A DNA stretch of 64,000 nucleotides from Escherchia phage Stokescottia (OR896820.1), one strand, 5' to 3'; counted from the first letter of the stretch, positions 5,934 through 60,345 are shown. Numbers and translations are program-made. The notes: a model not told the origin generated them from the sequence alone.

Positions 5934-6183
5934 TATACCCTCCTTCTCTAACTAAGACTACTATTATAACTCATTCGAGGGCGGATGTCAACAATATTTT
6001 ACTATAAAGTTCTGTAACATGATCTGAGTCAAAAAATTTTATTTGCCAACCTCTATTAAAAATTGTATAATCACGCACTCGTGTATGCGATATAAAATGA
6101 TTATCTAGTATCACACATCTCCCGTTAAAAGCAAGCAAATTTTTTATTTAAATGCAATATCATAGGCTTATTTAAAATTGTAG

Positions 6184-6212
6184 TTGCTTTTTACTGTATA
6201 TATTGGTATAAT
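6184..6212 (+). promoter_or_regulatory. sigma70-type early promoter (TTGCTT-N17-TATAAT)
   Basis: -35 6184-6189, -10 6207-6212; member of repeated promoter family. Confidence 0.6.
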
Positions 6213-6285
6213 ATATTTGTAAGTTGATAAACAAGATCTTTTTGTTGATCCTCTGTTAGCGAAGTACACTATAGGAGTGTTATTT

Positions 6286-7038
6286 ATGGGAAAAGCACGT
6301 CAAAAAAGAGAGAACCGCAATGGTTCAAGAAAGCGTGGCAACAAATATGAGAACAACGTAATTCAGGCTGATTTTTCTAATGATTACGCTAATCCAGTTG
6401 CTAAATCCCTAGTAGGTAAAAACCGCGAGCAAAAATCATATATCAATATGATCAAGAACAACACAGTGACTGTGGGTATCGGTGAGCCAGGTACTGGTAA
6501 AACCTTTATTCCGTCCGTTCTTGCAGCTCAGGAACTCGTAGACATTCACTCAGATATTGAGCAGGTGATTCTCGTACGTCCTAATGAACCTCTAGGTAAG
6601 TCTCTTGGTATGCTTCCTGGTGATCTAGCAGAAAAGCTAGAGCCTTGGTTAGAGCCAATAGCTGATGGTATGAAATGGGCCATCGGTGATCATGCCTATA
6701 AGGGATATGTCGAACGTCAGAAAATTAAATTTTTGGCTATCGAACATGCTCGTGGCAGAACTTTCAACAACTCCTATGTAATTGTCGATGAAGCTCAGAA
6801 TATTTCCGTTGAGGCAATGATTTGTCTCCTAACTCGTGTAGGACAAGACTGCCGTTTAATTATCTGCGGAGATATAGCTCAGAAAGACATTAAAGGTGAC
6901 TCAGGTCTAGCACTCCTTATGGAAGTCTATGAGAAATACGAAAATGCCCCATTCTCAATGATCGAATTGATTGATAACGTTCGTTCTGTTGAGTCTAAAG
7001 CATTCTATGATATTTTTAAAGACATGGGGAAGGTGTAA
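6286..7038 (+). CDS. phoH: PhoH-like ATPase
   Basis: Walker A GEPGTGKTF and PhoH-like layout; RBS taggag upstream of ATG at 6286. Confidence 0.85.
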   Translation: MGKARQKRENRNGSRKRGNKYENNVIQADFSNDYANPVAKSLVGKNREQKSYINMIKNNTVTVGIGEPGTGKTFIPSVLAAQELVDIHSDIEQVILVRPNEPLGKSLGMLPGDLAEKLEPWLEPIADGMKWAIGDHAYKGYVERQKIKFLAIEHARGRTFNNSYVIVDEAQNISVEAMICLLTRVGQDCRLIICGDIAQKDIKGDSGLALLMEVYEKYENAPFSMIELIDNVRSVESKAFYDIFKDMGKV

Positions 7039-7039
7039 T

Positions 7040-7282
7040 ATGGGAAACGTCGTTCATCTGAGCCGTAAAACTAAAATACATCGTACTTCACTGAGTGCTG
7101 CTAATATGATTACACGTAAGGAAGGGGAAGAAAGTCCTAAGACAGCCCTAGCGTGGAAAATTGTAACCTCAAATCCAAATAAACCATTCAATTATAACGA
7201 GCTGAGCACCTCCATAGATATTCTATTAAAAGAAGTTGCTAGAGCTAAAGTAATTGAACAAGCTAAAAAGCTAGACTGGTAA
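7040..7282 (+). CDS. hypothetical protein
   Basis: ATG overlaps phoH stop; internal start of ORF 6971..7282. Confidence 0.45.
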   Translation: MGNVVHLSRKTKIHRTSLSAANMITRKEGEESPKTALAWKIVTSNPNKPFNYNELSTSIDILLKEVARAKVIEQAKKLDW

Positions 7283-7402
7283 TATACAGGCCTGGGTATG
7301 AAAATACTCGGGCCTTTTCTATCAGAAAATTTTATTTGCCTAATGACCGATAATAAAGTAGAATATTCCTTAAATCCTGATAACTATAAAAAGGAAAGCC
7401 AA

Positions 7403-48246: not shown

Positions 48247-49136
48247 TGGGATTTTATAGTAATAGAAAACCAAAAGGTGTAACTGGTAAATTCGCAGTTG
48301 AAGAAAGACCTTTTCCACCAGTCGATGTAGAGAAACTACGTAAACTTCTAGAAATGCTAGAAGGTTGCCATGAACGTTGTTATTCTGAACTCTCTTTAAA
48401 TGAAAAACGTGTTGTTGAGATGTTCTGTATTCGTTCAGCTAGAACAGCTAAAGGTACTTCTCCAAAAGATGAAGTAAAAGAATACAGAGTTCTAGTGATG
48501 CATGCTTGGGCACAACGTTTTGCAGTTCATTCGCTTCAGGAATGGTTTAATCTTCCTGCATATAAAGATTTCCATGTTTACGAAGATGAAGTTATGAATT
48601 ATAATGAGTTATATGGTTTGTCCTTCAAAAAGACAGGCTCACCGATGCATGATGCACTCAATTCATTCCCTGATCATTACCTTCCAGTTCGTGAATACAG
48701 AGATCGTGAAGGAAATAAACCCTGCTTCACTATTTGGAATAAGTCTAAGACGATATCTGATCTAGATAATTATTGGTTCCGCACAAAAGAAGGATTCCTA
48801 GGAACAGAACCTTTACCTAAGGATCTCAAACCTATCCTTCCTCCTGCGAAACCTAAGCATGAAGTAACGATTGCTATTAATAGAATAATTCTAGGAGCAG
48901 ATGATCTTACTAAACAAATCGCCGCAGTTATCGCAGTTCTGTTTGATGGTACAAATTCTTCTACACGTTATGAGAAGCTAACGGATAACAAATTGCAGAT
49001 ACCTAACGAGTTGTATGAGAGTTCGTGCAAGATCTATGATAACTTTAGTAAAGTAGATTACCCCGTGAGATCCATCAAAGAACTCATGGAGTATGCGGAG
49101 ATGGGGATGAAAGGAAATCTCATGTTCGATGAATAA
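48246..49136 (+). CDS. hypothetical protein
   Basis: 296 aa; last plus-strand gene before the repeat region. Confidence 0.5.
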   Translation: MGFYSNRKPKGVTGKFAVEERPFPPVDVEKLRKLLEMLEGCHERCYSELSLNEKRVVEMFCIRSARTAKGTSPKDEVKEYRVLVMHAWAQRFAVHSLQEWFNLPAYKDFHVYEDEVMNYNELYGLSFKKTGSPMHDALNSFPDHYLPVREYRDREGNKPCFTIWNKSKTISDLDNYWFRTKEGFLGTEPLPKDLKPILPPAKPKHEVTIAINRIILGADDLTKQIAAVIAVLFDGTNSSTRYEKLTDNKLQIPNELYESSCKIYDNFSKVDYPVRSIKELMEYAEMGMKGNLMFDE

Positions 49137-49143
49137 ACTCTAC

Positions 49144-49172
49144 TTGACGTTATGATTTCTGCATGTTATAAT
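49144..49172 (+). promoter_or_regulatory. sigma70-type promoter reading into the repeat region
   Basis: TTGACG 49144-49149, TATAAT 49167-49172. Confidence 0.45.
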
Positions 49173-49508
49173 AACTCTATGAAATAACATAGAATAAAGA
49201 GATCCACCCGGATACGGATGGTGGATGGGAAACTTCTATTTCCCCCGTAGCTTGTCGGAGGGCTAGGGAAATCTTAAGAAGTTTTGTACCATCTCACGCA
49301 ATTCGTATCCCAGGGGTGGAGCATCTCTTCCAATCTTTGGGGATCTTATACTTAAATTAAAGGTAAAACTTTTGACCACATAATTTACATTTAAGATGAT
49401 ACACCGGTTGCCGCCATTCTTCCTAGGATGGCACAACACTTTCTAGTAGACTCCTAAGTTTCTAGGAATAGTTGAACACTAACTCTAGAGTTTACACTAA
49501 ACTTTAAA

Positions 49509-50230
49509 TCGGATTTGCACATGTTCTAGGGCAGTTTTTCACCTACTATAAATACCCTAGGCCGGTTTTCCTATACAGGGCGGTTATTTCTAGGAGACAT
49601 TTTTTGAAAACACATTTCCAGAAATTACTGTCGGATTTGCACATTGTGTTTCTAGAAATTTATGGTCGGATTTGCACAATTGCCTAAGTTTTCATGGACA
49701 CATAATCTCCTGAAAATGGCAGCATTATTTCGGGCCGAAGGCCCATGATTGCCTGAGTTTTTAGAGCCACAGAAATTTTCACTTGTCAAGCTATTTTGCC
49801 CCATTTTGCTAATAAAATTTTACTTTATCTCGCCCCAAGCCCAATTAACCCAAATTATCTCAACTCTTCCCCAAAAACGCAGCAAATCAGGTGCCCCGCA
49901 CCAAATATGCTGCCCCTCTAGCTTCTCCCTCTATTTTCTCTCGCTCTCTCATCTTCTCCCCAAACTCACACAATCACACGCCCTCTCATCGAAGTCACAA
50001 AAATCTTGTCGGATTCGCACATCTTAATCCTAGAAAAACCATGTCGGATTTGCACATACCCCACAGGATTCGAACGCAGTTCGAGATTGCTGGAGTTTTT
50101 GGGAAAATTCATTGTCGGATTTGCACACTATAAAAATTTTTCGGGTCGGATTTGCACACTACCAAAAATTGTCGGATTCGCACATACACGCCCGCACGTA
50201 ACACCCGTGGAGCAATGTCGGATTTGCACA
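49509..50230 (+). repeat. array of nine direct repeats GTCGGATT(T/C)GCACA with irregular spacing
   Basis: Copies at 49509, 49630, 49665, 50008, 50043, 50114, 50145, 50171, 50217; all same orientation. Confidence 0.85.
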
Positions 50231-50233
50231 AAA

Positions 50234-50255
50234 GCGCAGGGCAATTGCCCTGCGC
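50234..50255. repeat. perfect 22-bp palindrome GCGCAGGGCAATTGCCCTGCGC
   Basis: Read directly; immediately follows the last direct repeat. Confidence 0.85.
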
Positions 50256-50470
50256 TAAATACGAATGATAATAAGAATCATTCTCATTTAAAAAGCGGAA
50301 TGAGAATGATAATAATTCGCATTTAGAAAGTGAAACGAGAATCAATCTCATTTAAAAAGTGAAATGATTCTCGTTTAAAAAGCGGAATGAAAATTATTCA
50401 GGAAGTGAAACGATTCTCATTTAGAAAGTGAAATACAAATGAGAATGATTCGCATTTAAGAACGGAAGTG
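50256..50470 (+). repeat. degenerate tandem repeats (~25-30 bp unit, TC[TG]CATTTA[AG]AAAG[CT]G[AG]AA[CT]GA)
   Basis: About seven imperfect units read directly. Confidence 0.75.
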
Positions 50471-50600
50471 AGAAACACTGTTATTTAAGTTATCCACAGA
50501 CTTATTAACAGCACGATTTGACTTGACAAAATTCTAGCCATTTTGAAGCGTTATCAACAGACTTATCCACAACTTATCCTACTGTATAAATATACAGTAT
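50471..50600. repeat. left copy of ~130-bp imperfect inverted repeat with DnaA-box-like motifs and a LexA-box-like palindrome
   Basis: Aligns with the reverse complement of 54490-54620; contains TTATCCACA at 50490 and 50563 and CTGTATAAATATACAG at 50582. Confidence 0.75.
50582..50597. promoter_or_regulatory. LexA-box-like palindrome CTGT-N8-ACAG (also contains TATAAATA)
   Basis: ACTGTATAAATATACAGTA matches the gammaproteobacterial SOS-box consensus TACTGTATATATATACAGTA at 18 of 20 positions. Confidence 0.5.
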
Positions 50601-50965
50601 TCCTACGCAGTGAATAATTCTAATATAGCGTTAAAACGCTCTCAAACGCATTCTAACGCGTTTAATTTTGTTGGGGATACTAAAACAAGGGCAAAATTGG
50701 AGGAGGCTTGAAAATTAGTTAGCCCGCTAACGATCACACAAGGCGACACGTAACACCCTAACCATTAGCAGGCTAACCATCGCGGACGCGGTCAAATGAG
50801 AATGATTATCCTTTGAAAATTGGGGGCACTTCCTGATAGTTGCGCCCCGTGATTATTATAGTAGTGGGCAACCGTTACGCTTTGCCCACTCCCGCCACTC
50901 ATCTTGATGCCTAGACTTGCGACGGCGTACTAAAAACCGCTTGTACCAGTGATTAAACCATCGTT

Positions 50966-51169
50966 TCATAAATCCTCCTCCGGTAGTCGATGCGTGATCT
51001 TCTCCTCTTCCCTGTAGGAGTCTGCCAAATGCTGATAATAACCATCGTGATCATAAATCACTTTATCATACTCGCCACGCTCGACCGCTTGCCGGTTCTC
51101 CGGCGTATCGGGCACGTAAAAAACATCAACCATTGTACTGATTTTGGTTACAACAATTTTATTGCTCAT
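50966..51169 (-). CDS. hypothetical protein
   Basis: ORF track; last gene of the minus-strand cassette. Confidence 0.45.
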   Translation of the reverse strand: MSNKIVVTKISTMVDVFYVPDTPENRQAVERGEYDKVIYDHDGYYQHLADSYREEEKITHRLPEEDL

Positions 51170-51221
51170 AATAACGCTCCGTTACTATATAATCTCATTG
51201 CAATACACCAAAATTATATAG

Positions 51222-51437
51222 TTACTCATATTCTAGCTCGAAAATATCCTCACCATATAATTTGATTAAATCAATTAAATAAAACGCTGTGCCAGTATTA
51301 TTATTTCTTCTTATAAATCTATGATGAGCGTCTTTAAATACATTGAATACATCCCCTATTTTACCTACTCCCCATAAATCCTGTGTTAATTTTACCCGTT
51401 TAACCTTTAGCAACATATTCCAAGTAATTTCACTCAT
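51222..51437 (-). CDS. hypothetical protein
   Basis: ORF track; ATGA overlap with upstream gene. Confidence 0.45.
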   Translation of the reverse strand: MSEITWNMLLKVKRVKLTQDLWGVGKIGDVFNVFKDAHHRFIRRNNNTGTAFYLIDLIKLYGEDIFELEYE

Positions 51438-51778
51438 TGCGCCACCTTTCGAAACGCTGTTTCAATACTATCCGCAGTGGATTGAATATACGCGCCTTTC
51501 ATTATCAGGCGCTCAGTGCATACTTTGCGGAAAATATTAATAAAATCATCTTCATTTTCTGCAATTAATGCTTCACCCATAACTTGAACGTCACAAGATG
51601 CAAAAGTTAAAAATTGAAATGCTAGTTCACGGGCAACGACCGCATTGATTTTATAATGCGCCTTGCCCTCATAAATATTAATAACGCCCTTATAAGCTGG
51701 TGAAAGCTGATTCAAATAGTTTGCTAATAATGCTGGGCGGCAATTAGCAACAAAACGATTGCCCTCATAAATAACCAT
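51434..51778 (-). CDS. hypothetical protein
   Basis: Start at 51778 (MVIYEG). Confidence 0.5.
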   Translation of the reverse strand: MVIYEGNRFVANCRPALLANYLNQLSPAYKGVINIYEGKAHYKINAVVARELAFQFLTFASCDVQVMGEALIAENEDDFINIFRKVCTERLIMKGAYIQSTADSIETAFRKVAQ

Positions 51779-51901
51779 TTGACAGCCTCCCAATTAGATA
51801 GCCAGATAATAACATAAAGATCCCCAACGAAATGGGGTCATTTTTGAATAAGGTGGCGGTAAAACCGCCAACCATTGCAAGGGCAATAACGATAACGCTT
51901 T

Positions 51902-52114
51902 TCATAGTACCCCACGAAACGCAGCGTAAAAGGTGGCAAAGTGTTTAACCGTTTCAGCGATCACGTTGCCGCGCTTATCAAATTTTTTCTCGGTAACACG
52001 AAAGGCATTTTTGTTACGTGCTACATATTCGATTTTACAATCTTCCCGCTCGAACGTGTTAACATCCACCAGCTTAAAGCCTTTCGAACGTGCAAGAGAA
52101 ACGTTGCGGATCAT
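51902..52114 (-). CDS. hypothetical protein
   Basis: ORF track. Confidence 0.45.
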   Translation of the reverse strand: MIRNVSLARSKGFKLVDVNTFEREDCKIEYVARNKNAFRVTEKKFDKRGNVIAETVKHFATFYAAFRGVL

Positions 52115-52116
52115 TT

Positions 52117-52299
52117 TTATTCTCCTTTACTAGTCATGCAGCCCAGCAGATAAGAAAATACAGCAATGCCAGCACCAATAGTAACCATTGGTTTTGTATT
52201 TACTAGACCGCAGTAGGAATCCTGAATACCATAAGCGGTGGCGAAAAGAGTCAAAATAGCGCCCAAGATACCCGCCAGAATAGCTCGAAAAATAACCAT
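52117..52299 (-). CDS. small membrane protein
   Basis: Two hydrophobic helices. Confidence 0.45.
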   Translation of the reverse strand: MVIFRAILAGILGAILTLFATAYGIQDSYCGLVNTKPMVTIGAGIAVFSYLLGCMTSKGE

Positions 52300-52348
52300 T
52301 TGTAATACTCCCCTAGTTAGTGGGGCGAAAGTAACGCCCCGTTATTAA

Positions 52349-52579
52349 TTACATTAAAACAATTTTTGCCGCTTGTTTTTTGGTACAGTGTTCCGCTTTC
52401 AGGGTATCCAGCAAAAAGCCAGCCGTTTGCTGATCGATTTTATCGGCGTTGTATAGTTCTTGGATGGTGTTATAAGTTTTAGCAATGCCGAACTCCTGCA
52501 CCATGTCATGAATGATGACGCGGTTAGACACCCAGCCTTGAGCGGTAAACAGATGACTAGCAGAAGAATAAGCAACCAT
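52349..52579 (-). CDS. hypothetical protein
   Basis: Start at 52579 after RBS GGAGG. Confidence 0.5.
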   Translation of the reverse strand: MVAYSSASHLFTAQGWVSNRVIIHDMVQEFGIAKTYNTIQELYNADKIDQQTAGFLLDTLKAEHCTKKQAAKIVLM

Positions 52580-52684
52580 TTTAAGCCTCCAAATTTTTGG
52601 GAAAATTTTCAATCCACCGTTTTGGTGTAAAGGCATTATAACAAAAAAGGCCGCCATAAAAGGCGACCTTTACAAAACTTTACA

Positions 52685-53179
52685 CTAAACTACCTGTAAG
52701 GATTCAACATTGAAACATCGTTTCAGTTCGTCATGCAAGATAGCATATTCATCCCATCGGGTACTATCAGGAATATAAACAAGCTGTTTTAATCGGTTTG
52801 CGTATATTACCGCTTTATTGCCAATTATTTCCGCGCCACCATGTTTAATAATTAATTTCATGACGGAATTAATAGGATCGCCGCCGTTTACATATGCGCC
52901 GGATTTACTCAATTGATAATGATAAAGGCTTGCATATACGTTTTCATTTTCATACCATTCGCCCGATTCCTCGTCTTCGTAACCATCGCTACCAAAACGA
53001 GAAGCGTTATCAATAGCCATTTCATGAGCGAAAGCGTCCAGATCACAACCAGCGGGAACAAAGTGTTCCTCCGTCCAACCTTCCCCGCAATAGCCAGTAT
53101 GACAATCGACCAAAATGATCATATCATGTTTTGCCGTGCTCACTTCTCCCAGTGAGAAGCCATATTTTTCTTCTGACAT
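52685..53179 (-). CDS. acidic hypothetical protein
   Basis: Start at 53179 after RBS AGGAGG; Cys/His cluster VDCHTGYCGEGW. Confidence 0.55.
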   Translation of the reverse strand: MSEEKYGFSLGEVSTAKHDMIILVDCHTGYCGEGWTEEHFVPAGCDLDAFAHEMAIDNASRFGSDGYEDEESGEWYENENVYASLYHYQLSKSGAYVNGGDPINSVMKLIIKHGGAEIIGNKAVIYANRLKQLVYIPDSTRWDEYAILHDELKRCFNVESLQVV

Positions 53180-53243
53180 AATTAGCCTCCTATTAATTAA
53201 CAAGGGAATAGTAAAGCGGGGAAACAATCCCCGCTAAATATTA

Positions 53244-54230
53244 TTACTCGCTTTCGGTGTTAGTAGTAAAAGTAGAAATATCAATACCTTTCACCATTTC
53301 ATCAATCATTTCAGCAATATTGAAACTCTGTACCATTTCCAACATTGCCGCTTCCATTGCCGCCCCTGCTACCGCTTTCGCCTTTTGGTTAGTCGGGGCG
53401 TACTGGTCAACCGCTACACTCAGCAGGTTAGCGATCACTACACGACCAATCGGCGTATCAATATAACCTTTAATCATAAACGGTGCTTTTTTAGCCGCTA
53501 CTTTCGTGATTTGAGTTAGTGCAATTTTACCCGCTTCCAGTTTTGCAGCGTTTACAACAGCGGATTTATTAGCGGCAACGATGTTAGCAATCTTGGTCAT
53601 GGTGTTTTTTCCTTTGTTTTCAGTAGTTTGAGTGTTAGAATTTACAGCCTGATTTTCAACGTAAATACTTTCTTCTCTTTCGAAAGAGAATCCCGCACTT
53701 TCGACGTCGCCATCATATACATACGGGTATAATTCCGAGGGTAACAAAAAATTACCGTCGCCATCAAAAGCCATTATAGCGGTATATTGAGATCCGTCAT
53801 TATCCGGCTTATACCATCCAGCAGGTAAATACTTCCAGATAACATCTAAAAATCCCTCAATGCTAGAAAGTCCATTTATCAGATCAAGTCCAATAAGCTC
53901 AAAACCATTTATATTAAATGATTGACGGCCTGAATTGCTATGATACGCAACAATATTATTACCCTGCGCAACAATAAAATCGGTATCCGGCCCCGCTCCC
54001 CTGCCTGTAAAGATATGGCAATCCCGATTATATAAAACTAGCGTTGCCCCTTGCTTATATAACGGTAGAAAACTATCCATATCATAGGCGTCATACTCAT
54101 CAAAAAAGTTTTGATGAATAGTTTCAACCTTGTTAATAAAATGTTTAATGCTGGTTGACTTGCTACCGTCCAGCAGGTTGCGCAATGCACCTTTTAAAAC
54201 GGTGGCATTATCAGGTTTAAAAAGCCTCAT
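53244..54230 (-). CDS. hypothetical protein (first gene of cassette)
   Basis: Start at 54230 after RBS GAGGGAGG; ~330 aa with globular N-terminal half and Ala/Lys-rich helical C-terminal half. Confidence 0.55.
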   Translation of the reverse strand: MRLFKPDNATVLKGALRNLLDGSKSTSIKHFINKVETIHQNFFDEYDAYDMDSFLPLYKQGATLVLYNRDCHIFTGRGAGPDTDFIVAQGNNIVAYHSNSGRQSFNINGFELIGLDLINGLSSIEGFLDVIWKYLPAGWYKPDNDGSQYTAIMAFDGDGNFLLPSELYPYVYDGDVESAGFSFEREESIYVENQAVNSNTQTTENKGKNTMTKIANIVAANKSAVVNAAKLEAGKIALTQITKVAAKKAPFMIKGYIDTPIGRVVIANLLSVAVDQYAPTNQKAKAVAGAAMEAAMLEMVQSFNIAEMIDEMVKGIDISTFTTNTESE

Positions 54231-54489
54231 TTGTTCGGCCTCCCTCGTTAATCGGTGAGTGAATGATATAGATATTTGTTCACTAGGGGCAAGAAAAAAG
54301 AAAATGTTTTTTATTCCTTGCCTAGCGCCTAATTTTATGCTAACCGCGCAGCGGTGTAGTAAAGAGCAAAACACGGTGAAGCCACCAGGCCGACGCATTG
54401 AGGCTTTGCTTTAATATTACCTTGCAGCGTTTAGCTCGTTAGAATGCGATTTAGGCCGCTTAAAATTGATTGCAGTCGTTAACACTACC

Positions 54490-54620
54490 TTTTTACCCTG
54501 TATATTTATACAGTAGAATAACCTGTGGATAAGTCTGTGCAAAAGTCCTTATATCGCCGCCTATCGTGTCAAATCTTTTTGTGCTGTGGATAACATTGTG
54601 GATAACTTAAATGATAGTGG
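54490..54620. repeat. right copy of ~130-bp imperfect inverted repeat
   Basis: Reverse complement aligns with 50471-50600; DnaA-box-like 9-mers at 54524, 54585, 54597 and palindrome CTGTATATTTATACAG at 54498. Confidence 0.75.
54498..54513. promoter_or_regulatory. LexA-box-like palindrome upstream of the minus-strand cassette
   Basis: CTGTATATTTATACAGTA; on the minus strand reads CTGTATAAATATACAG about 285 bp upstream of the cassette start. Confidence 0.5.
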
Positions 54621-54639
54621 TTCTCACTTAGGCCGATGG

Positions 54640-54880
54640 TTTCTTATAGTTATTATTTACTGTAGTTATTATTTATTATAATTATTATTTCTCATTAATT
54701 TATATGTATATTATATATTATGTAATAGTTAGTTGGCTAATGAGATTTTCCGTGATTAATAGTCTGCTAATAATTTAATCCGTTACAATCCACCAGCATG
54801 ATTATCATCCTAGCAATTATTAGTCTGCTATTCTTCCAATACACACTAGCAAATAAAAGTCAATTAATTTATTTCATAAA
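54640..54880. other. strongly AT-rich block (possible DNA-unwinding element)
   Basis: Runs of TTATT/ATTAT with almost no G or C; flanked by DnaA-box-like motifs. Confidence 0.5.
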
Positions 54881-54886
54881 ATAAGT

Positions 54887-54923
54887 AGTTATCCACTGGA
54901 AAATAAAAGTCAAGTGGATAACT
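54887..54923. promoter_or_regulatory. palindromic pair of DnaA-box-like motifs (GTTATCCAC-N18-GTGGATAAC)
   Basis: Read directly; operator-like inverted repeat. Confidence 0.55.
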
Positions 54924-55368
54924 AGGAAAATTTCATTTTTGCTTTTGGGGATAAGTTATCAACAAGGCTAGAATGCGCCTAAAACGCTCCAGAACGCAAT
55001 AAAGTTTTTAGCCATCCCATCATAAGGGGATAGGCCGTTTATCGCTACCACGAGCTTTTTAGATTTTGTCAAGTAGGGCAAAGCAAATATAAATGAAAAA
55101 ATTACTTGCCTATCTGCTCTGTTTTGTGGTATTCGCGCGCCCGTTTCTTTTAATTTTAGGCCGTCGCCGGACGTGGTGCGGTGAATTTTGTCTTTACGTT
55201 TCTTTACAAAAATAGGGTTGCGCCATTTTCGGGAATCCCCTATTATTTATCACGTAGGGCGGCAATGACGAACTACACGGCGGGAAGTTTACCGCCGCGC
55301 TCTTTAAAAATTGGGTACATCTTAAAGCCTATCGGCGGTAAACTTATTCATTATAAGGAATCGACGAT

Positions 55369-55572
55369 ATGAAACAAACTTTATTGATCACTGGCAAGCC
55401 TAGCAAGGCACTAGATAGCAAAACAAAAAATTTGTTGACAGTAGCGCAAAGATCGGTAAAATATCGATTCACGCAGTACAAGAAAGGTCGCCAGCAAGGT
55501 TTAGAAATGATCTGGCGAAATATTATGATTGACCTGAAAGAAAATCATAAAAAATCTCAAAAAATTGTTTGA
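55369..55572 (+). CDS. small basic protein
   Basis: ORF track; RBS aggaa. Confidence 0.4.
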   Translation: MKQTLLITGKPSKALDSKTKNLLTVAQRSVKYRFTQYKKGRQQGLEMIWRNIMIDLKENHKKSQKIV

Positions 55573-55800
55573 CACCCTAGCCGATAGGCTTTAAGATGTA
55601 CCCAGTTCGACAAGAGCGATAACTTGATAAAATTTGACGGTCGGCACTTACCATAATGTGTCCCGCCCCCTAACTGGGATATAGCGGCCTACGTGGAGTT
55701 CTTTAAATTGATTATATTGGCGAGCGGATTGTTACTTATTACCTGCTACTTTCTAGCAGGTAATGCGGAACAATCCCCTAAATAACTTGGAGTTTATACT

Positions 55801-56052
55801 ATGCAAAACGTTATTACCGCGCCTAAAATTGGTCAATCCGTCTTCATTCCTTTCGTTACTAAAACGGATGAATTAACCGGAAAAGCCGAACGTATTAAAG
55901 GCGCGGCGCTTATGCCGTTTGATACAATCGACGCGGTATACGCTGAAACGGAACGTAGTAACAACGGCAAACCCGTTTTTAGCGTTCGCGTTAAATCCGG
56001 CGACGTTGTAAAGGTTGTTCAACGTAACGAAAAATGGGAAGCTGTTTTATAA
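55801..56052 (+). CDS. hypothetical protein
   Basis: ORF track; conserved upstream motif and GGAG RBS. Confidence 0.5.
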   Translation: MQNVITAPKIGQSVFIPFVTKTDELTGKAERIKGAALMPFDTIDAVYAETERSNNGKPVFSVRVKSGDVVKVVQRNEKWEAVL

Positions 56053-56150
56053 TCTAGTGTTAACTTTATATCCCCCTTATTTCAGGGGGATATAACGATT
56101 AACATTAAGTTAATCTAATCCCTTAAATTAAACAAACAGGAGTTTATATC

Positions 56151-56558
56151 ATGACTAACGCTAAAACCGCAAAATTTGCATGGAATGAAGAAAACACTCA
56201 AAAAGCTGTTTCCATGTATCAGCAATTAATCAACGAAAACGGTTTAGATTTTGCAAATAGCGACGGCCTGAAAGAGATTGCAAAAGCAGTAGGCGCGGCC
56301 TCCCCCGTATCCGTTCGGTCAAAATTGACCAGTGCAAAAGCCTATCAAAAAAGCGACAAGCCGCGCAAAGTTGGCGGCGGTAGTTCAATCCGCAAGGCTC
56401 ACTATGTGCGCGTTATTGCAAAACACGCTATCGATTCCGGCATTATCAAAGACGCCGACGATCTGGCAAGCCTTGAAAGTGCAAAATTGGAAACACTGGA
56501 CGCTGTAGCGCAATTGTTAGGCGTTGCCGATGAAGTGAAACAGGCCGCAGGGGAATAA
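56151..56558 (+). CDS. pre-early-type small protein (A2-like by size and position)
   Basis: 135 aa directly upstream of the A1-like gene; assignment by synteny and size only. Confidence 0.4.
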   Translation: MTNAKTAKFAWNEENTQKAVSMYQQLINENGLDFANSDGLKEIAKAVGAASPVSVRSKLTSAKAYQKSDKPRKVGGGSSIRKAHYVRVIAKHAIDSGIIKDADDLASLESAKLETLDAVAQLLGVADEVKQAAGE

Positions 56559-56648
56559 TAGTTATATCTTGCCCCCTTCTAGTGAGGGGGCAATAATATA
56601 ACTGTTTAGCGATAGTTATTTTCTTCCCTTAAATCAGGAGTTTTAAAA

Positions 56649-56846
56649 ATGATTTTCTTTCCTACTGAATCCTTAATTCTAGGCTTGTTTATTATGGCGG
56701 CCTCGTTATTGTTCGCTTATTTTCAAAATGATTTAGATTCGTATTATTTTAAACGCAAATCTAAATTGGCAAAGCGTTTAGGTCTGATTTGTTTTATTGC
56801 CGCCGTTGCTTGTGGTGTTAGTTCTAGCCTAGTGCCTTTAAATTAA
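56649..56846 (+). CDS. small membrane protein
   Basis: Two hydrophobic helices. Confidence 0.45.
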   Translation: MIFFPTESLILGLFIMAASLLFAYFQNDLDSYYFKRKSKLAKRLGLICFIAAVACGVSSSLVPLN

Positions 56847-56937
56847 TGTTGCAAATTATAACGCCTATTATTGGAGGCGTTATATTTGGCAATATTGCCA
56901 AAATTGAATTTAATCCCTTTAATGGAGTTTTATTACT

Positions 56938-58608
56938 ATGATTATTTCCGCAGAAAAACAAACCGTTATCCTGAAAATGGCCGCTGATTTCAATTTCTAC
57001 GGTAAACGCCTGCGCGCCACTAAATTGGAAGTTTGTGACGATATTTCGAAAGCGGTATACGATACTACTAAACACTCCACCACTATCTGCGACTGGCTGG
57101 AAGCAAATAAACCAGCGAAACCGAAAGCGGCAAAAGTAGCAAAAGCCATTAAAAACGATGAGCGCCCCGAAGCGGCTGGGATTGTTTCTAGTACCGTGGA
57201 ACAGTGGGAAGTAAAACAAGGTAAACGTTTTATTATTACGTCGATTCAAAATAATACTTTCCCGCATAAAAACTTTTTAGCCGCGCTGGAGCAATATGCT
57301 AAATTTATCGGCGCTGATTTGCTTGTTTCTAAGTATATTTATAATAAAAACGGATTCCAAAATGGGGAAGGTGCTGATGGGATCAAATATGATCCCGCTT
57401 TCGATAAATATATTTGCAGCAAAAACGTGTTTTTAAATAACCGCCGTTTCGCTTTCATGGCTGAAATTAATGTTTTGCCAACCGCAGATTATCCGCTTTC
57501 TGGATTTGCAGAAACTGCAACGGCTTTAAATATCGAGGGTCTGGCAATTGGTCACGCTAAAATCACCGCCGAAAGCGTGCCAGCTTTAAAAGGTGAAGTA
57601 GTGCGCCGTATGTATTCAACCGGAACGGCAACGCTCAAAAACTACATTCAGCAGAAAGCAGGACAGAAAGCGGAAGCACTTCATAATTTTGGCGCGCTTA
57701 TTGTTGAGTTCGACGACGACGGGGAGTTTTTTGTTCGCCAGCTTGAAACAATGGACGAAAGCGGCATGTTTTACGATTTGAATATTTGCGCCACTCCTTC
57801 GGGATGTTTTGAAACGTCGGGGCATGTTTTAGGCTTGCAGTATGGCGATATTCATGCAGAAAAACTAGATGAGGCTTGCGCTCAAGCGTCTTGGGGTCAT
57901 GGTGATACTTATGGGCTTGTGGATATTCTCAAACCGAAATATCAGTTTGTACATGATGTGCATGATTTTACATCCCGCAATCATCATAACCGCGCTTCTG
58001 GTGTATTCCTAGCGAAACAGTACGCCGCCGGACGTGATAAGGTTATTGATGATCTTATCGATACGGGGCGCGTGCTGGAATCAATGGAGCGTGATTTTTC
58101 TCAAACAATCATTGTTGAATCAAATCACGATTTGGCGTTATCCCGTTGGCTGGATGATCGAAATGCTAACATCAAAGACGATCCAGCAAACGCCGAACTA
58201 TATCACAGCCTAAACGCTGCAATCTATGCGGCTATTGCAAAGCAGGACGATACTTTCAACGTGCTAGATTATGCCTTGCGTAAGGTAGCAGGTTGTGAAT
58301 TTAACGCCATTTTCCTGACCACTGACCAATCGTTTAAAATTGCAGGCATTGAATGCGGCGTACACGGTCACAACGGCATAAACGGCAGCCGTGGCAATCC
58401 TAAGCAGTTTAAGAAATTGGGCAAGTTAAACACTGGTCATACTCATACGGCAAGCATTTACGGCGGCGTATATACCGCTGGCGTAGCAGGTAGTCTGGAT
58501 ATGGGTTACAACGTTGGCGCGTCAAGCTGGACGCAAACCCATTTAATTACATACGCAAACGGTCAGCGCACTTTGATTGACTTTAAGAATGGTAAATTCT
58601 TTGCGTAA
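56938..58608 (+). CDS. A1: A1-like pre-early protein with C-terminal metallophosphoesterase domain
   Basis: 556 aa; C-terminal half has GDIHAE, HDVHD, SNHD, GVHGHNG, TGHTHT blocks in calcineurin-like order; size matches what I recall for T5 A1. Confidence 0.55.
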   Translation: MIISAEKQTVILKMAADFNFYGKRLRATKLEVCDDISKAVYDTTKHSTTICDWLEANKPAKPKAAKVAKAIKNDERPEAAGIVSSTVEQWEVKQGKRFIITSIQNNTFPHKNFLAALEQYAKFIGADLLVSKYIYNKNGFQNGEGADGIKYDPAFDKYICSKNVFLNNRRFAFMAEINVLPTADYPLSGFAETATALNIEGLAIGHAKITAESVPALKGEVVRRMYSTGTATLKNYIQQKAGQKAEALHNFGALIVEFDDDGEFFVRQLETMDESGMFYDLNICATPSGCFETSGHVLGLQYGDIHAEKLDEACAQASWGHGDTYGLVDILKPKYQFVHDVHDFTSRNHHNRASGVFLAKQYAAGRDKVIDDLIDTGRVLESMERDFSQTIIVESNHDLALSRWLDDRNANIKDDPANAELYHSLNAAIYAAIAKQDDTFNVLDYALRKVAGCEFNAIFLTTDQSFKIAGIECGVHGHNGINGSRGNPKQFKKLGKLNTGHTHTASIYGGVYTAGVAGSLDMGYNVGASSWTQTHLITYANGQRTLIDFKNGKFFA

Positions 58609-58664
58609 TTAAATTATTACCCTAGCGGCTTGAAATATAGCCGCTATTACAGGAGCTAAATTAA

Positions 58665-58943
58665 ATGGCTATTAAAATTAATCTTCCCAACGTTAAAAAC
58701 ACCGCCGATACATGGTCGATTGATACTATATTGCGCGGCACTGTATACCGCAATTTAAAAGATAATAATTGTTATATTTATCAAAATGAATTAAACGGCC
58801 ACACTTATATAATTGAGTCCGATGGTTTTTGTTCTTTTGAGACTGATTATGAAGCGAAAGATCATATACAGGCAAATGATATTCCTGACGTATGGAAAGA
58901 AACAAATCTCGCTTTTGTTGTAAGTCTTGAAGCTAACAAATAA
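58665..58943 (+). CDS. hypothetical protein
   Basis: ORF track. Confidence 0.45.
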   Translation: MAIKINLPNVKNTADTWSIDTILRGTVYRNLKDNNCYIYQNELNGHTYIIESDGFCSFETDYEAKDHIQANDIPDVWKETNLAFVVSLEANK

Positions 58944-58981
58944 ATTAAATCCCTTATTAAATTAATTGGAGTTTTATAAAT

Positions 58982-59374
58982 ATGAAAAAGCAAAATATTC
59001 CTTTCGATCGCGCTCAATCCTCAATTGTTCTGGTTTATTCTAATGGCGAGCGTTATCACGTCGAGGCAGGGCACGTTATTGATGAATTATTAGACTTCAA
59101 TGACGCTTTACAGGTTACTACCTTTGCCTATACGCAAGGCCGCGCAAGTAGTTACATTAAGGCCGCAGGTGTTTATGTTGATACGGTGAAACAAGAAACG
59201 ATTATCATCGACGCCGTAAAATCCGGCCTTGCCTTTGCAGTTGTCGCGCCTTGCCCCGCTTGCCTCGATGATCACCTAGCGAGCGCAAAGGTATATACCT
59301 GCGCGGGTATTCGTTCCCATGTATCCGGCGAAGATATTAGTTTTATTGCTGATGCATTGGCTTATGGTCTTTAA
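58982..59374 (+). CDS. hypothetical protein
   Basis: ORF track. Confidence 0.5.
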   Translation: MKKQNIPFDRAQSSIVLVYSNGERYHVEAGHVIDELLDFNDALQVTTFAYTQGRASSYIKAAGVYVDTVKQETIIIDAVKSGLAFAVVAPCPACLDDHLASAKVYTCAGIRSHVSGEDISFIADALAYGL

Positions 59375-59453
59375 TAGTTGATTTATTATTGCCCGCTGAT
59401 AAATAGCGGGCAATGCTGAATTAATCTAATCCCTTTAATGGAGAACGTAACAA

Positions 59454-60188
59454 ATGAATAAAGCTATTATTAATTCTTTCCGTAATTTCCCGCATATTTC
59501 CCGCGTCATGATTTGGGATTTAGACGGCACTATCATTAATTCTTTCCATCGTGTAGCGCCTTGCTTTGATAGTGAGGGCAATTTAGATTTAAATAAGTAT
59601 AAAAATGAAGCCTGCAAACATCATTTAATAATGCAAGATACTTTATTGCCATTGGTTGAATATATGCGCCAGTGCATGAATGACGCAAATACTTTAAACA
59701 TTATTTGCACCGCTCGATTGATGAGCAAGTCGGATTACTATTTCTTGCGCAAACAAGGATTGCGAGGGCGTGGAAATAGCAATATCCGCGTGTTTTCCCG
59801 CGATACACTGCACAAATATTTTGAGGCTGATAAAGTTAGCGAAATATACCACAGCAAAGACGCAGTTTATAAATCTTATTACTTTGAGCTATTTAAACAG
59901 CTATATCCGAATGCTGATTTTACAATGATTGACGATCATAAAGGCGTGCTATCAGCGGCGGCATCATACGGGTTTAAAACGCTGGACGCGCAAGCCGTTA
60001 ACGATATTCTATCAATCGGCGTGGCATTGATAGGTGAAACCTTTATCGATGAATCTCTCGACGATGATAATGATTATCAGTTCCTAGCTGATCGCTTGAA
60101 ATTATGTTGGGAAAGTATGACCGAAGAAGAACGCGCAGAATATAGTTGCAGCCCGCAACAATATATTGAGAAATTAAAAGTTGCGTAA
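59454..60188 (+). CDS. dmp: HAD-family phosphatase (5'-deoxyribonucleotidase Dmp-like)
   Basis: N-terminal MIWDLDGTIINS matches HAD motif I; 244 aa in a pre-early-like context; symbol by analogy only. Confidence 0.45.
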   Translation: MNKAIINSFRNFPHISRVMIWDLDGTIINSFHRVAPCFDSEGNLDLNKYKNEACKHHLIMQDTLLPLVEYMRQCMNDANTLNIICTARLMSKSDYYFLRKQGLRGRGNSNIRVFSRDTLHKYFEADKVSEIYHSKDAVYKSYYFELFKQLYPNADFTMIDDHKGVLSAAASYGFKTLDAQAVNDILSIGVALIGETFIDESLDDDNDYQFLADRLKLCWESMTEEERAEYSCSPQQYIEKLKVA

Positions 60189-60201
60189 TAATTAAAGTTG
60201 A

Positions 60202-60239
60202 AATAGTCACGGTGTGTAACGATAACATGCCGTGACTAT
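60202..60239. terminator. palindromic hairpin between convergent genes
   Basis: ATAGTCACGG...CCGTGACTAT inverted repeat. Confidence 0.5.
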
Positions 60240-60345
60240 TAGCTTGCTAAGTACCGGGCGGTAATGAGACTCATTCTCATCTGGGAGGCCACTGGACACA
60301 CCTCCATGTGTAATCTTATGAAATTTGGCAAAAGTCAAATTAGCG

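What the first reader, a model, noticed from the sequence alone, without database searches (positions are those of the whole stretch)
50471..54620. 3.9 kb minus-strand gene cassette bounded by ~130-bp inverted repeats carrying LexA-box-like and DnaA-box-like motifs
Two imperfect inverted copies of a ~130-bp sequence (50471-50600 and 54490-54620) bracket eight small minus-strand genes of unknown function (50966-54230). Each copy holds perfect TTATCCACA 9-mers and the palindrome CTGTATA(A/T)ATATACAG, an 18/20 match to the E. coli-type SOS box that also embeds TATAAATA. Terminal inverted repeats around a cassette with no recognisable transposase or recombinase, combined with possible SOS-responsive control in a lytic-phage background, is not something I can map to a described system. 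The cassette could be a mobile or invertible module, an SOS-inducible accessory locus, or part of a replication or injection control region.
Basis: partly seen in the sequence, partly recalled or inferred. Interest (0 to 1): 0.85.

Follow-up and report, generated by a model that had tools for sequence, protein, structure and literature searches.

The report
Known T5 injection-region repeats, LexA-like sites
The two inverted repeats are real but already described in phage T5, where they flank a dispensable block of early genes; what appears to be new is that each repeat carries a near-perfect binding site for the host SOS repressor LexA, conserved across the whole T5 phage family.

Summary
There are two 132-nt arms (50466-50597 and 54498-54629), 75% complementary. 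Each carries four DnaA-type boxes in two pairs and the same 16-bp CTGT-N8-ACAG palindrome.

The element is not undescribed. The window is the collapsed terminal repeat of a T5-like phage. The arms are T5's IRD'-spacer-IRC' and IRC-spacer-IRD repeats, annotated in GenBank AY587007 and discussed with their DnaA boxes by Davison (bioRxiv 10.1101/866236). They sit in the same order in every relative examined. No transposase or recombinase is present.

Two results go beyond the literature I could search:
- **LexA operator.** T5 "palindrome D" scores as a top-grade LexA operator. Its heterology index is 1.04 (left) and 4.18 (right), against 1.83-9.23 for 12 verified E. coli operators. LexA-like sites persist in the same pre-early region, mostly beside DnaA boxes, in Proteus, Vibrio, Aeromonas, Klebsiella and Pectobacterium relatives. 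They are absent from 330 kb of control phage DNA.
- **Inversion.** The gene block between the arms is inverted in the Klebsiella-type and My1-type lineages.

Best reading: host-factor (DnaA and LexA) landing pads on the first-injected DNA. The LexA boxes do not overlap the known pre-early promoters, so a classical SOS-regulated operon is unlikely. LexA binding remains untested.

The parts
50466..50597 (.). Distal arm (on the injection-stop side), equivalent to T5 IRD'-spacer-IRC' (T5 9332-9462)
   Evidence: the repeat finder I1. 90-97% identical to T5 IRD'/IRC'. Present in every relative examined.
54498..54629 (.). Proximal arm (on the A2 side), equivalent to T5 IRC-spacer-IRD (T5 6022-6152)
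   Evidence: the repeat finder I1. Maps to T5 IRC/IRD. The T5 counterpart lies inside the hegG-017 deletion of a viable T5 mutant.
50580..50599 (.). LexA-operator-like palindrome TACTGTATAAATATACAGTA (T5 'palindrome D')
   Evidence: 19/20 to the SOS consensus. Heterology index 1.04, lower than all 12 verified E. coli operators. Lowest-scoring 20-mer in the 64-kb window.
54496..54515 (.). LexA-operator-like palindrome CCCTGTATATTTATACAGTA
   Evidence: 17/20 to the consensus. Heterology index 4.18, second lowest in the window.
50490..50510 (+). Outer DnaA box pair of the distal arm: TTATCCACA gac TTATTAACA
   Evidence: Pair spacing of 3 bp, as Davison describes.
50551..50571 (+). Inner DnaA box pair of the distal arm: TTATCAACA gac TTATCCACA
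54524..54544 (-). Inner DnaA box pair of the proximal arm (TTATCCACA and TTTTGCACA on the minus strand)
54585..54605 (-). Outer DnaA box pair of the proximal arm (TTATCCACA twice on the minus strand)
50467..50479 (.). Outer-end quasi-palindrome AGTGAGAAACACT. Its mirror copy lies at 54616-54628.
   Evidence: Also present in the Klebsiella, Enterobacter and Proteus RP7 phages.
50598..50710 (.). Inward extension of the distal arm: AAACGC repeats, a hairpin at 50644-50663, and the G-rich motif GGGGATACTAAAACAAGGGC
   Evidence: I2, alignments, terminator-like hairpin
54385..54497 (.). Inward extension of the proximal arm. Includes the T5 IRB' equivalent at 54426-54462.
   Evidence: I2
50966..54230 (-). 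Block of nine small pre-early ORFs (T5 011-017-like). 51902-52114 is the T5.015 Ung-dependent nickase homologue.
   Evidence: The T5 counterparts are dispensable.
54263..54292 (-). Promoter of the gene block (T5P4 equivalent): TTGCCC-18-TATCAT behind an A-rich upstream tract
   Evidence: A promoter upstream of T5 gene 011 has been characterised experimentally.
49508..50478 (.). Injection-stop repeat region: nine TCGGATTTGCACA repeats (DRD) and ATTCTCATTTAAAAAG-type repeats (DRC/DRE). The 7.9% nick site maps to about 50236-50245 and the terminal-repeat end to 49764.
55425..55638 (+). Promoter region of the A2-A1-dmp operon (T5P2 and T5P1 equivalents, with -35/-10 at 55435-55462 and 55569-55597)
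56151..58608 (+). A2 (56151-56558) and A1 (56938-58608), the essential second-step-transfer genes, with a small membrane-protein ORF between them

Best explanation
The two arms are the T5-family repeats IRD'-spacer-IRC' (distal, next to the injection-stop repeats) and IRC-spacer-IRD (proximal, in the divergent promoter region upstream of A2). They lie inside the terminal repeat that enters the cell first.

Each arm is an ordered array of binding sites for host proteins. There are two pairs of DnaA boxes separated by a spacer of about 52 bp, then a consensus LexA operator at the inner edge about 10 bp from the last DnaA box.

The first-step DNA stops entering before any phage protein is made. 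Only pre-existing host or virion proteins can therefore read a signal on it. I infer that DnaA and a LexA dimer load onto the arms as soon as they enter. The resulting nucleoprotein complexes would hold or organise the first-step DNA at the injection stop, and would bracket the variable, dispensable pre-early gene block.

The arms are not transposon ends. Their inverted arrangement has nevertheless allowed the block between them to flip on rare occasions during evolution.

Shown here: the identity of the element, the motif content, family-wide conservation, and the inversion. Inferred: LexA and DnaA occupancy. Speculative: the role in the injection stop.
For: **Identity**
- The region is 98% identical to Salmonella phage L6jm and lies in the terminal repeat of Tequintavirus genomes.
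- T5's annotated IRC, IRD, palD, IRD' and IRC' map onto the arms at 86-97% identity.
- Davison describes the same 131-bp repeats, with eight DnaA boxes in pairs 3 bp apart, in 25 phages.

**LexA operator**
- I built a matrix from 12 operators read from E. coli K-12. It gives a heterology index of 1.04 and 4.18 for the two sites, against 1.83-9.23 for the real operators. The next best 20-mer in the window scores 10.8.
- In eight phages of at least six genera (202 kb), 18 sites score below 9.3 against 0.35 expected from shuffles. Fifteen of the 18 lie within 130 nt of a perfect TTATCCACA.
- All 41 A1-bearing loci from the gene-1-anchored scan have 1-3 such sites. Twenty-two control loci without A1 (330 kb) have none.
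- The flanks are unalignable in Proteus, Vibrio and Aeromonas phages (A1 31-43% identical), yet CTGTAT-N4-ATACAG persists.
- The variation seen is what LexA tolerates: the central four bases, and CTGG/CCAG half-sites. The stems do not covary.

**Dispensability and inversion**
- T5 delta-L delta-R is viable. Its published deletion primers map to about T5 5393-9081, which removes the proximal arm and all genes between the arms but keeps palD and the distal arm.
- Homologues of gene 1 (E = 3e-46) and gene 2 (E = 5e-21) are mirrored between unchanged arms in Klebsiella-type and My1-type phages.
Against: - No binding data exist for LexA or DnaA on these sites.
- Neither LexA box overlaps the mapped or predicted strong pre-early promoters, so there is no obvious regulatory target.
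- The proximal arm is dispensable in T5 (small plaques only). Davison reports phage types that lack IRC/IRD.
- Several phages carry one weakened half-site, for example ACAA with index 8.1.
- LexA is not membrane-associated, so it does not fit Davison's DnaA membrane-anchor idea in any simple way.
- All known hosts share the same LexA motif, so host-factor and phage-factor binding cannot be separated by comparative genomics.
- I could not read Heusterspreute 1987, Wang 2005 or Davison 2015. The LexA resemblance may already have been noted there.
Confidence: 0.6

Rival explanations
1. The palindrome and DnaA-like boxes are read by a phage protein, not by LexA or DnaA. The candidates are the dimeric DNA-binding protein A2 or the A1-A2 complex. 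The site would serve to restart transfer, for instance by cutting or releasing the DNA at a palindrome as in Davison's restriction-enzyme model. The resemblance to host operators would be incidental or deliberate mimicry.
For: - A2 and A1 are essential for second-step transfer, and A2 binds double-stranded DNA as a dimer.
- A1 and A2 are conserved across the same family range as the palindrome.
- Davison lists PalD among candidate cleavage palindromes.
- The A2 model is all-helical with HTH-like weak matches.
Against: - The motif stays on the host LexA consensus (index 1-7.6) while A2 drifts to 33-41% identity.
- The tolerated variants (CCAG half-site, free centre) are those seen in real LexA operators.
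- A2 shows no sequence or significant fold similarity to LexA. BLASTP gives E = 8, and Foldseek's best LexA hit is E = 2.9.
- The stop operates before A1 and A2 exist, although restart does not.
Confidence: 0.2
2. The repeats act through DNA structure alone. Hairpins, cruciforms or pairing between the arms would stall DNA translocation, and the protein-site resemblances would be irrelevant. This is the classical view of the injection-stop region.
For: The region is dense in repeats and palindromes. This is the standard description in the literature.
Against: - If only pairing mattered, compensatory changes would be free. Instead the same CTGTAT/ATACAG and TTATCCACA words recur in genera whose flanks are unalignable.
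- The arms are only 75% complementary to each other.
- The distance between the arms varies from about 1.5 to 4.1 kb.
Confidence: 0.1
3. A classical SOS-repressed accessory operon. LexA bound at the proximal box would repress the minus-strand gene block, or an outward promoter, until DNA damage or host-DNA degradation triggers LexA cleavage.
For: - High-grade LexA boxes are present.
- The consensus scan finds weak promoter-like hexamers overlapping or next to the boxes: + 54479-54506 TTAACA-16-TATATT, and - 50645-50617.
- T5 degrades host DNA early in infection, which could generate an SOS signal.
Against: - The conserved promoter of the block (T5P4 equivalent, 54263-54292) lies about 200 bp downstream of the box. 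The A2/A1 promoters lie 800-1000 bp away.
- The box-overlapping hexamers are not conserved in T5 (direct reading).
- The second box sits beyond the 3' end of the operon.
- The arrangement is kept even where the block is inverted.
Confidence: 0.07
4. A mobile or actively invertible cassette bounded by terminal inverted repeats.
For: - An inverted-repeat pair brackets a gene block of variable content.
- The block is found in both orientations across the family.
Against: - There is no transposase, invertase or recombinase.
- No target-site duplication is visible at the outer ends (direct reading).
- The arms occupy the same place in every relative, with no empty site.
- Orientation never varies among about 30 close relatives and differs only between deep lineages.
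Confidence: 0.03

Closest known systems
T5 inverted repeats IRC-spacer-IRD and IRD'-spacer-IRC', with palindrome D (GenBank AY587007; Davison 2020, bioRxiv 10.1101/866236)
   Same: Same position in the terminal repeat and the same 131-132-nt architecture. Same eight DnaA or DnaA-like boxes in pairs 3 bp apart, and the same palindrome. 86-97% sequence identity.
   Different: Nothing structural; this is another phage's copy. The window's phage lacks the HNH endonuclease insertion next to the proximal arm. All four boxes of its proximal arm are consensus.
LexA operators (SOS boxes) of E. coli and Salmonella, e.g. umuDC, dinD, sulA, recA
   Same: A 20-bp palindrome with a CTGT-N8-ACAG core and an AT-rich centre. 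The heterology index is as low as or lower than that of the strongest chromosomal operators.
   Different: It does not overlap a mapped promoter. It sits in a lytic phage's first-injected DNA, always beside DnaA boxes and in two inverted copies. Binding and SOS dependence are untested.
DnaA box clusters such as oriC, datA and DARS
   Same: Multiple closely spaced TTATCCACA-type boxes with fixed phasing.
   Different: Not at a replication origin; T5 origins map near the genome centre according to Davison. There is no adjacent AT-rich unwinding element that I could recognise. The cluster is paired with a LexA site.
Invertible segments bounded by inverted repeats (Mu G segment/Gin, P1 C segment/Cin, Salmonella hin)
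   Same: A gene block between inverted repeats is found in both orientations in related genomes.
   Different: There is no invertase gene and no orientation polymorphism among close relatives. The arms are 130-250 bp at 75% identity, not short crossover sites. The flips look like rare recombination events, not a switch.

Membership tests
T5 first-step-transfer inverted repeats (IRC/IRD and IRD'/IRC') | Located inside the long terminal repeat: one copy between the A2-side promoters and the rightward pre-early genes, the other next to the injection-stop repeats | tested here: met
   The terminal repeat spans 49764-60297, the arms lie at 50466-50597 and 54498-54629, and the DRD/DRC repeats at 49508-50478.
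T5 first-step-transfer inverted repeats (IRC/IRD and IRD'/IRC') | Arms of about 131 bp, made of two ~40-nt repeats around a ~52-bp spacer | tested here: met
   132-nt arms. The T5 IRD'/IRC' and IRC/IRD sub-repeats map onto both arms with a spacer of about 51 nt.
T5 first-step-transfer inverted repeats (IRC/IRD and IRD'/IRC') | Eight DnaA or near-DnaA boxes, in pairs separated by 3 bp | tested here: met
   pairs at 50490/50502, 50551/50563, 54524/54536 and 54585/54597
T5 first-step-transfer inverted repeats (IRC/IRD and IRD'/IRC') | Sequence homology to the T5 elements | tested here: met
   86-97% identity to the annotated T5 features
LexA operator (gammaproteobacterial SOS box) | Palindromic CTGT-N8-ACAG core with an AT-rich spacer | tested here: met
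   Both arms, and both arms of T5.
LexA operator (gammaproteobacterial SOS box) | Heterology index within the range of functional operators | tested here: met
   1.04 and 4.18, against 1.83-9.23 (leave-one-out 2.06-12.5) for 12 operators read from E. coli K-12
LexA operator (gammaproteobacterial SOS box) | Overlaps or abuts a promoter, so that bound LexA blocks initiation | tested here: not met
   The T5P4, T5P1 and T5P2 equivalents lie 200-1000 bp away. Only weak, non-conserved hexamers overlap the boxes.
LexA operator (gammaproteobacterial SOS box) | LexA binds the site, and expression responds to RecA-mediated LexA cleavage | not testable with these tools
   Needs gel shift or footprinting, ChIP, and RNA-seq in lexA mutant hosts.
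DnaA box cluster | Matches to TTWTNCACA, clustered | tested here: met
   Six of the 12 matches in the window fall in the two arms.
DnaA box cluster | DnaA occupancy | not testable with these tools
   No experimental study exists, according to PMC10644984.
Transposon or insertion sequence with terminal inverted repeats | Encodes a transposase or other recombinase | tested here: not met
   PHROGs and Pfam scans of the ORFs
Transposon or insertion sequence with terminal inverted repeats | Target-site duplication and presence/absence polymorphism | tested here: not met
   The outer flanks differ (AACGGAAG versus AGGCCGAT). The arms are present at the same site in all relatives.
Site-specific invertible segment (Gin/Cin/Hin type) | Invertase gene, and both orientations present within a strain or among close relatives | tested here: not met
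   There is no invertase. All of about 30 close relatives share one orientation. Only the deep Klebsiella-type and My1-type lineages differ. Read-level data were not available.

The most novel reading that the evidence does not exclude
Phages of the whole T5 family (Demerecviridae) recruit the host SOS repressor LexA, together with DnaA, onto the first 8% of their DNA. LexA occupancy, or its loss once host DNA degradation begins, would then be part of the mechanism that stops, holds or times the two-step genome injection. T5's 'palindrome D' would be a functional LexA operator in a strictly lytic phage, used for DNA-entry control and not for prophage induction.
Probability: 0.35. Interest if true: 0.75.

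Novelty: already known. Interest (0 to 1): 0.45.

Why it matters
The element itself is not new, so this finding should not be counted as a discovery of a new cassette. Two points do matter.

First, how T5 stops injecting after 8% of its genome has been an open question since the 1960s, and no experiment has yet tested the repeats. A consensus LexA operator beside DnaA boxes is conserved from E. coli phages to Vibrio and Aeromonas phages. This names two specific host proteins that can be tested with existing strains and with the T5 engineering methods already published.

Second, a LexA site in a strictly lytic phage, away from promoters, would be an unusual use of the SOS repressor if it proves functional.

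Tried and rejected
- **Rfam.** A scan of 49000-56500 at E <= 1 gave only a chance miRNA hit. No known RNA family explains the arms.
- **JSS1_004.** A lead from a paper reporting a phage protein bound at the recA and lexA promoters. From the kinase plus shutoff domain description I took JSS1_004 to be a T7 gp0.7-like protein, not a T5 pre-early protein, and dropped it. I did not verify this.
- **Alphaproteobacterial test.** I looked for phages of alphaproteobacteria with A1-like proteins, to see whether the LexA motif tracks the host type (GTTC-N7-GTTC). Agrobacterium phage Alfirin and Dinoroseobacter phage R26L carry the A1-like gene in unrelated genome contexts with no first-step region, so the test does not apply.
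- **A2 as a LexA mimic.** No Pfam hit, no PDB sequence hit, BLASTP against LexA E = 8. The AlphaFold model (pLDDT 84.7) gave no Foldseek match with E below 0.1, and the LexA DNA-binding domain scored only E = 2.9. The result is inconclusive and gives no support.
- **Promoters over the LexA boxes.** I searched for a conserved promoter overlapping the boxes. Only weak hexamers turned up, and they are not conserved in T5.
- **Literature.** Searches linking T5 or Demerecviridae with LexA or SOS boxes found nothing relevant. Davison 2015 could not be retrieved. I did not try to retrieve Heusterspreute 1987 or Wang 2005.
- **Published LexA matrix.** The Salmonella SOS paper lists heterology index values but no sequences. 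I therefore built the matrix from E. coli K-12 promoters fetched directly.

Full report
**1. The observation**

The repeat is real. The repeat finder reports arms at 50466-50597 and 54498-54629: 132 nt, 75% complementary, 3900 nt apart. A second pair (50631-50665 / 54430-54464) extends the similarity inward.

The left arm holds TTATCCACA at 50490 and 50563, plus one-mismatch boxes at 50502 and 50551. The right arm holds four consensus boxes on the minus strand at 54524, 54536, 54585 and 54597. In both arms the boxes form pairs 3 bp apart.

CTGT-N8-ACAG occurs three times in 64 kb against 0.76 expected, and two of the three are in the arms. The left site, TACTGTATAAATATACAGTA, matches the 20-bp SOS consensus at 19 of 20 positions. 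The right site, CCCTGTATATTTATACAGTA, matches at 17 of 20.

Nine minus-strand ORFs lie between the arms.

**2. Where the window comes from**

The region is 98% identical to Salmonella phage L6jm and matches 473 phage records, nearly all T5-like. A1 (56938-58608, 556 aa) and A2 (56151-56558, 135 aa) lie to the right on the plus strand.

Alignment to both ends of L6jm shows that the window comes from an assembly in which the long terminal repeat is collapsed to one copy. The repeat spans 49764-60297 and runs in reverse relative to the standard T5 map.

**3. The element is already described**

The T5 GenBank record AY587007 annotates the following features:

| T5 feature | T5 coordinates |
|---|---|
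| Inverted repeat C | 6022-6060 |
| Inverted repeat D | 6112-6152 |
| Palindrome D | 9330-9349 |
| Inverted repeat D' | 9332-9372 |
| Inverted repeat C' | 9424-9462 |

These map onto the window's arms at 86-97% identity. T5 carries the same palindromes: CACTGTATAAATATACAGGG at 6135 and TACTGTATAAATATACAGTA at 9330.

Davison (bioRxiv 10.1101/866236) describes the 131-bp IRC-spacer-IRD and IRD'-spacer-IRC' in 25 T5-like phages. He reports eight DnaA or near-DnaA boxes in pairs 3 bp apart and a constant 52-bp spacer. He proposes that they belong to the injection stop signal through membrane-bound DnaA.

The nine TCGGATTTGCACA repeats and the ATTCTCATTTAAAAAG-type repeats to the left of the distal arm are T5's DRD and DRC/DRE repeats. 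The 7.9% nick maps to about 50236-50245.

**4. Not a mobile cassette**

- Eight of the nine ORFs match PHROG families of T5-like pre-early genes. One (51902-52114) is the T5.015 Ung-dependent nickase. None is a transposase or recombinase.
- In 40 A2-anchored loci from IMG/VR, both arms were found in the same order and orientation in 39. The remaining locus (L036) gave no arm match, probably for lack of upstream flank. The arms lie 1.85-4.1 kb apart.
- The outer flanks show no target-site duplication.
- A 2026 preprint reports a viable T5 mutant lacking hegG through 017. Its deletion primers map to about T5 5393-9081. By inference the mutant lacks the proximal arm and every gene between the arms, but keeps palindrome D and the distal arm. 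Its plaques are smaller.

**5. The palindrome as a LexA operator**

I read 12 SOS operators directly from E. coli K-12 MG1655: recA, two in lexA, sulA, umuD, uvrA/ssb, two in recN, dinI, uvrB, dinB and dinD. From these I built a symmetrised count matrix and computed a Berg-von Hippel heterology index.

| Site | Heterology index |
|---|---|
| 12 real E. coli operators | 1.83-9.23 (leave-one-out 2.06-12.5) |
| Window, left site | 1.04 |
| Window, right site | 4.18 |
| Next best 20-mer in 64 kb | 10.8 |

By sequence, the left site would rank among the strongest LexA operators known in E. coli.

**6. Conservation far beyond T5**

I fetched the A1 neighbourhoods of distant family members. Their A1 identity to the window's protein is Klebsiella 74%, Enterobacter 72%, Pectobacterium My1 65%, Proteus RP7 42-43%, Vibrio D239 34.5%, Aeromonas AhSzw-1 34% and Vibrio KIT04 31-32%.

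Their non-coding DNA cannot be aligned with the window. Each nevertheless has CTGTAT-N4-ATACAG in the pre-early region, in most cases a few bases to about 30 nt from TTATCCACA boxes. Examples:

- Proteus: TTATCAACAagTTATCCACAggttataactaCTGTATATAATTACAG
- Vibrio KIT04: TTATCCACAaccTTATCCACAgaaaaactaCTGTATATCCATACAG

Over eight phages (202 kb), 18 sites score below 9.3 against 0.35 expected from shuffles. Fifteen of them lie within 130 nt of a perfect DnaA box.

A second scan, anchored on gene 1, gave 41 loci with A1 and 22 loci without it. All 41 (723 kb) have 1-3 such sites. The 22 loci, from phages carrying only a distant gene-1-like domain, have none in 330 kb and a single DnaA box.

The variation is what LexA tolerates: the central four bases, and CTGG/CCAG half-sites, which also occur in several of the 12 real operators. 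The stems do not covary, which argues against a purely structural role.

**7. Where the sites sit relative to transcription**

T5's annotated promoters map as follows:

| T5 promoter | Window position | Drives |
|---|---|---|
| P1 | 55535-55638 | A2-A1-dmp operon |
| P2 | 55425-55500 | A2-A1-dmp operon |
| P4 | 54214-54331 (TTGCCC-18-TATCAT at 54292-54263, minus strand) | Gene block between the arms |

A promoter upstream of T5 gene 011 and two overlapping hdi have been characterised experimentally.

The proximal LexA box therefore lies about 200 bp upstream of P4 and 900 bp or more from P2 and P1. The distal box lies beyond the 3' end of the block. Only weak hexamers overlap the boxes, and they are not conserved in T5. 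Classical SOS repression of the block is thus unlikely.

**8. Inversion of the inner block**

Homologues of gene 1 (53244-54230) and gene 2 (52685-53179) lie between the arms in every lineage that has them.

- In Klebsiella-type phages (L040, L041, L047, L092-L094) and in My1 and a relative (L061, L095-L097) they are on the same strand as A2 and in mirrored order.
- In all T5-like and Epseptimavirus-like loci, in Enterobacter KKP_3711, in the Proteus RP7 group and in one further lineage (L098-L100) they are on the opposite strand.
- The homology is solid: E = 3e-46 over full length for gene 1 and E = 5e-21 for gene 2.
- The arms keep their orientation throughout.

A neighbour-joining tree of A1 separates the two inverted lineages, which suggests at least two events. 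This rests on a single-gene tree without support values. No orientation difference was seen among about 30 close relatives, so this is rare recombination between the arms and not a switch. [quoted passage not shown]

**9. Who binds the palindrome?**

A2, the phage's own dimeric DNA-binding protein, is the obvious rival to LexA.

- It has no Pfam hit in the local library, no PDB sequence match, and no similarity to LexA (BLASTP E = 8).
- An AlphaFold model built from 20 homologues (pLDDT 84.7) is all-helical with two domains joined by a basic linker.
- Foldseek against the PDB gave nothing with E below 0.1. The LexA DNA-binding domain appears only at E = 2.9, which is not significant.

This neither supports nor excludes A2.

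The argument for host LexA is indirect. The motif stays on the host consensus across phages whose A2 has diverged to 33-41% identity. It always accompanies sites for another host protein, DnaA. And the stop must be read before any phage protein exists; it is established that second-step transfer needs newly made A1 and A2.

**10. Verdict**

- **Observation:** confirmed.
- **Interpretation:** partly supported.
- **The element:** the known T5 first-step repeat pair with its DnaA boxes, so already known.
- **Not found in the searchable literature:** (a) the reading of palindrome D as a top-grade LexA operator conserved family-wide beside DnaA boxes, and (b) the demonstration that the block between the arms has been inverted in two lineages. 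I could not read the 1987, 2005 and 2015 papers.
- **Function:** unproven. My best estimate is host-factor landing pads that organise the first-injected DNA at the injection stop. The exact role remains open.

Noticed in passing
window 49764-60297: The window comes from an assembly in which the ~10.5-kb terminal repeat is collapsed to one copy. Sequence left of 49764 matches the unique DNA next to the left repeat of phage L6jm. Sequence right of 60297 matches the unique DNA next to its right repeat. The physical genome ends therefore map to about 60297 and 49764.
   Followed up: yes
L040, L041, L047, L061, L092-L097, compared with window 52685-54230: The gene block between the arms is inverted relative to A2/A1 in Klebsiella-type and Pectobacterium My1-type phages, while the arms keep their orientation. 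An A1 tree suggests two independent flips, but it is a single-gene neighbour-joining tree without support values.
   Followed up: yes
window 50672-50700, and the inner flank of the distal arm in L043, L045, L047 and L060: A G-rich motif of the form GGGG..GG.AT..TA.T.AGGGG lies 80-110 nt inside the distal LexA-like box. It is recognisable from E. coli phages to Proteus and Aeromonas phages and stays with the arm where the block is inverted. Its function is unknown.
   Followed up: partly
window 50467-50479 and 54616-54628: A quasi-palindrome, AGTGAGAA(A/C)CACT, marks the outer end of each arm. It is also present in Klebsiella, Enterobacter and Proteus RP7 phages. It was not found in My1 or in the Vibrio and Aeromonas phages. 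I could not match it to any known binding site.
   Followed up: partly
window 50585-50594 / 54501-54510, and the same palindrome in L003, L011, L012, L021, L034 and others: The asymmetric centre of the palindrome switches between TATAAATATA and TATATTTATA, which are reverse complements. The switch occurs independently in single arms of different phages, so in some phages the two arms no longer mirror each other at the centre. It looks like repeated flipping of the palindrome core.
   Followed up: no
L060 9511-9530 and L044 10936-10955: Some relatives have a third high-grade LexA-like site away from DnaA boxes. In Enterobacter KKP_3711 it lies inside the 5' part of the gene-1 homologue. In Vibrio D239 it lies about 470 bp upstream of A2.
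   Followed up: no
window 54886-54924: A 15-nt inverted repeat, TAGTTATCCACTGGA / TCAAGTGGATAACTA, carries two near-DnaA boxes (TTATCCACT). It sits between the proximal arm and the A2-operon promoters, beside 20-nt direct repeats at 54844-54863 and 54894-54913. It is probably part of T5 'Repeat Region 1'.
   Followed up: no
window 54640-54690: Three tandem 16-bp AT-rich repeats (TTTCTTATAGTTATTATTT type) lie immediately outside the proximal arm. A promoter-like TAGCCA-18-TATAAT on the minus strand at 54739-54710 points through the arm.
   Followed up: no
window 51222-51437 (minus strand): A 71-aa ORF in the block has no PHROG match. Among the loci examined it was found only in L6jm. It may be a recent acquisition or not a real gene.
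   Followed up: partly
window 53244-54230 (minus strand); L103-L124: The C-terminal ~120 residues of gene 1 (Pfam DUF7566) recur in many phages that are not T5-like and have no A1 nearby. This suggests a widespread mobile domain of unknown function.
   Followed up: no
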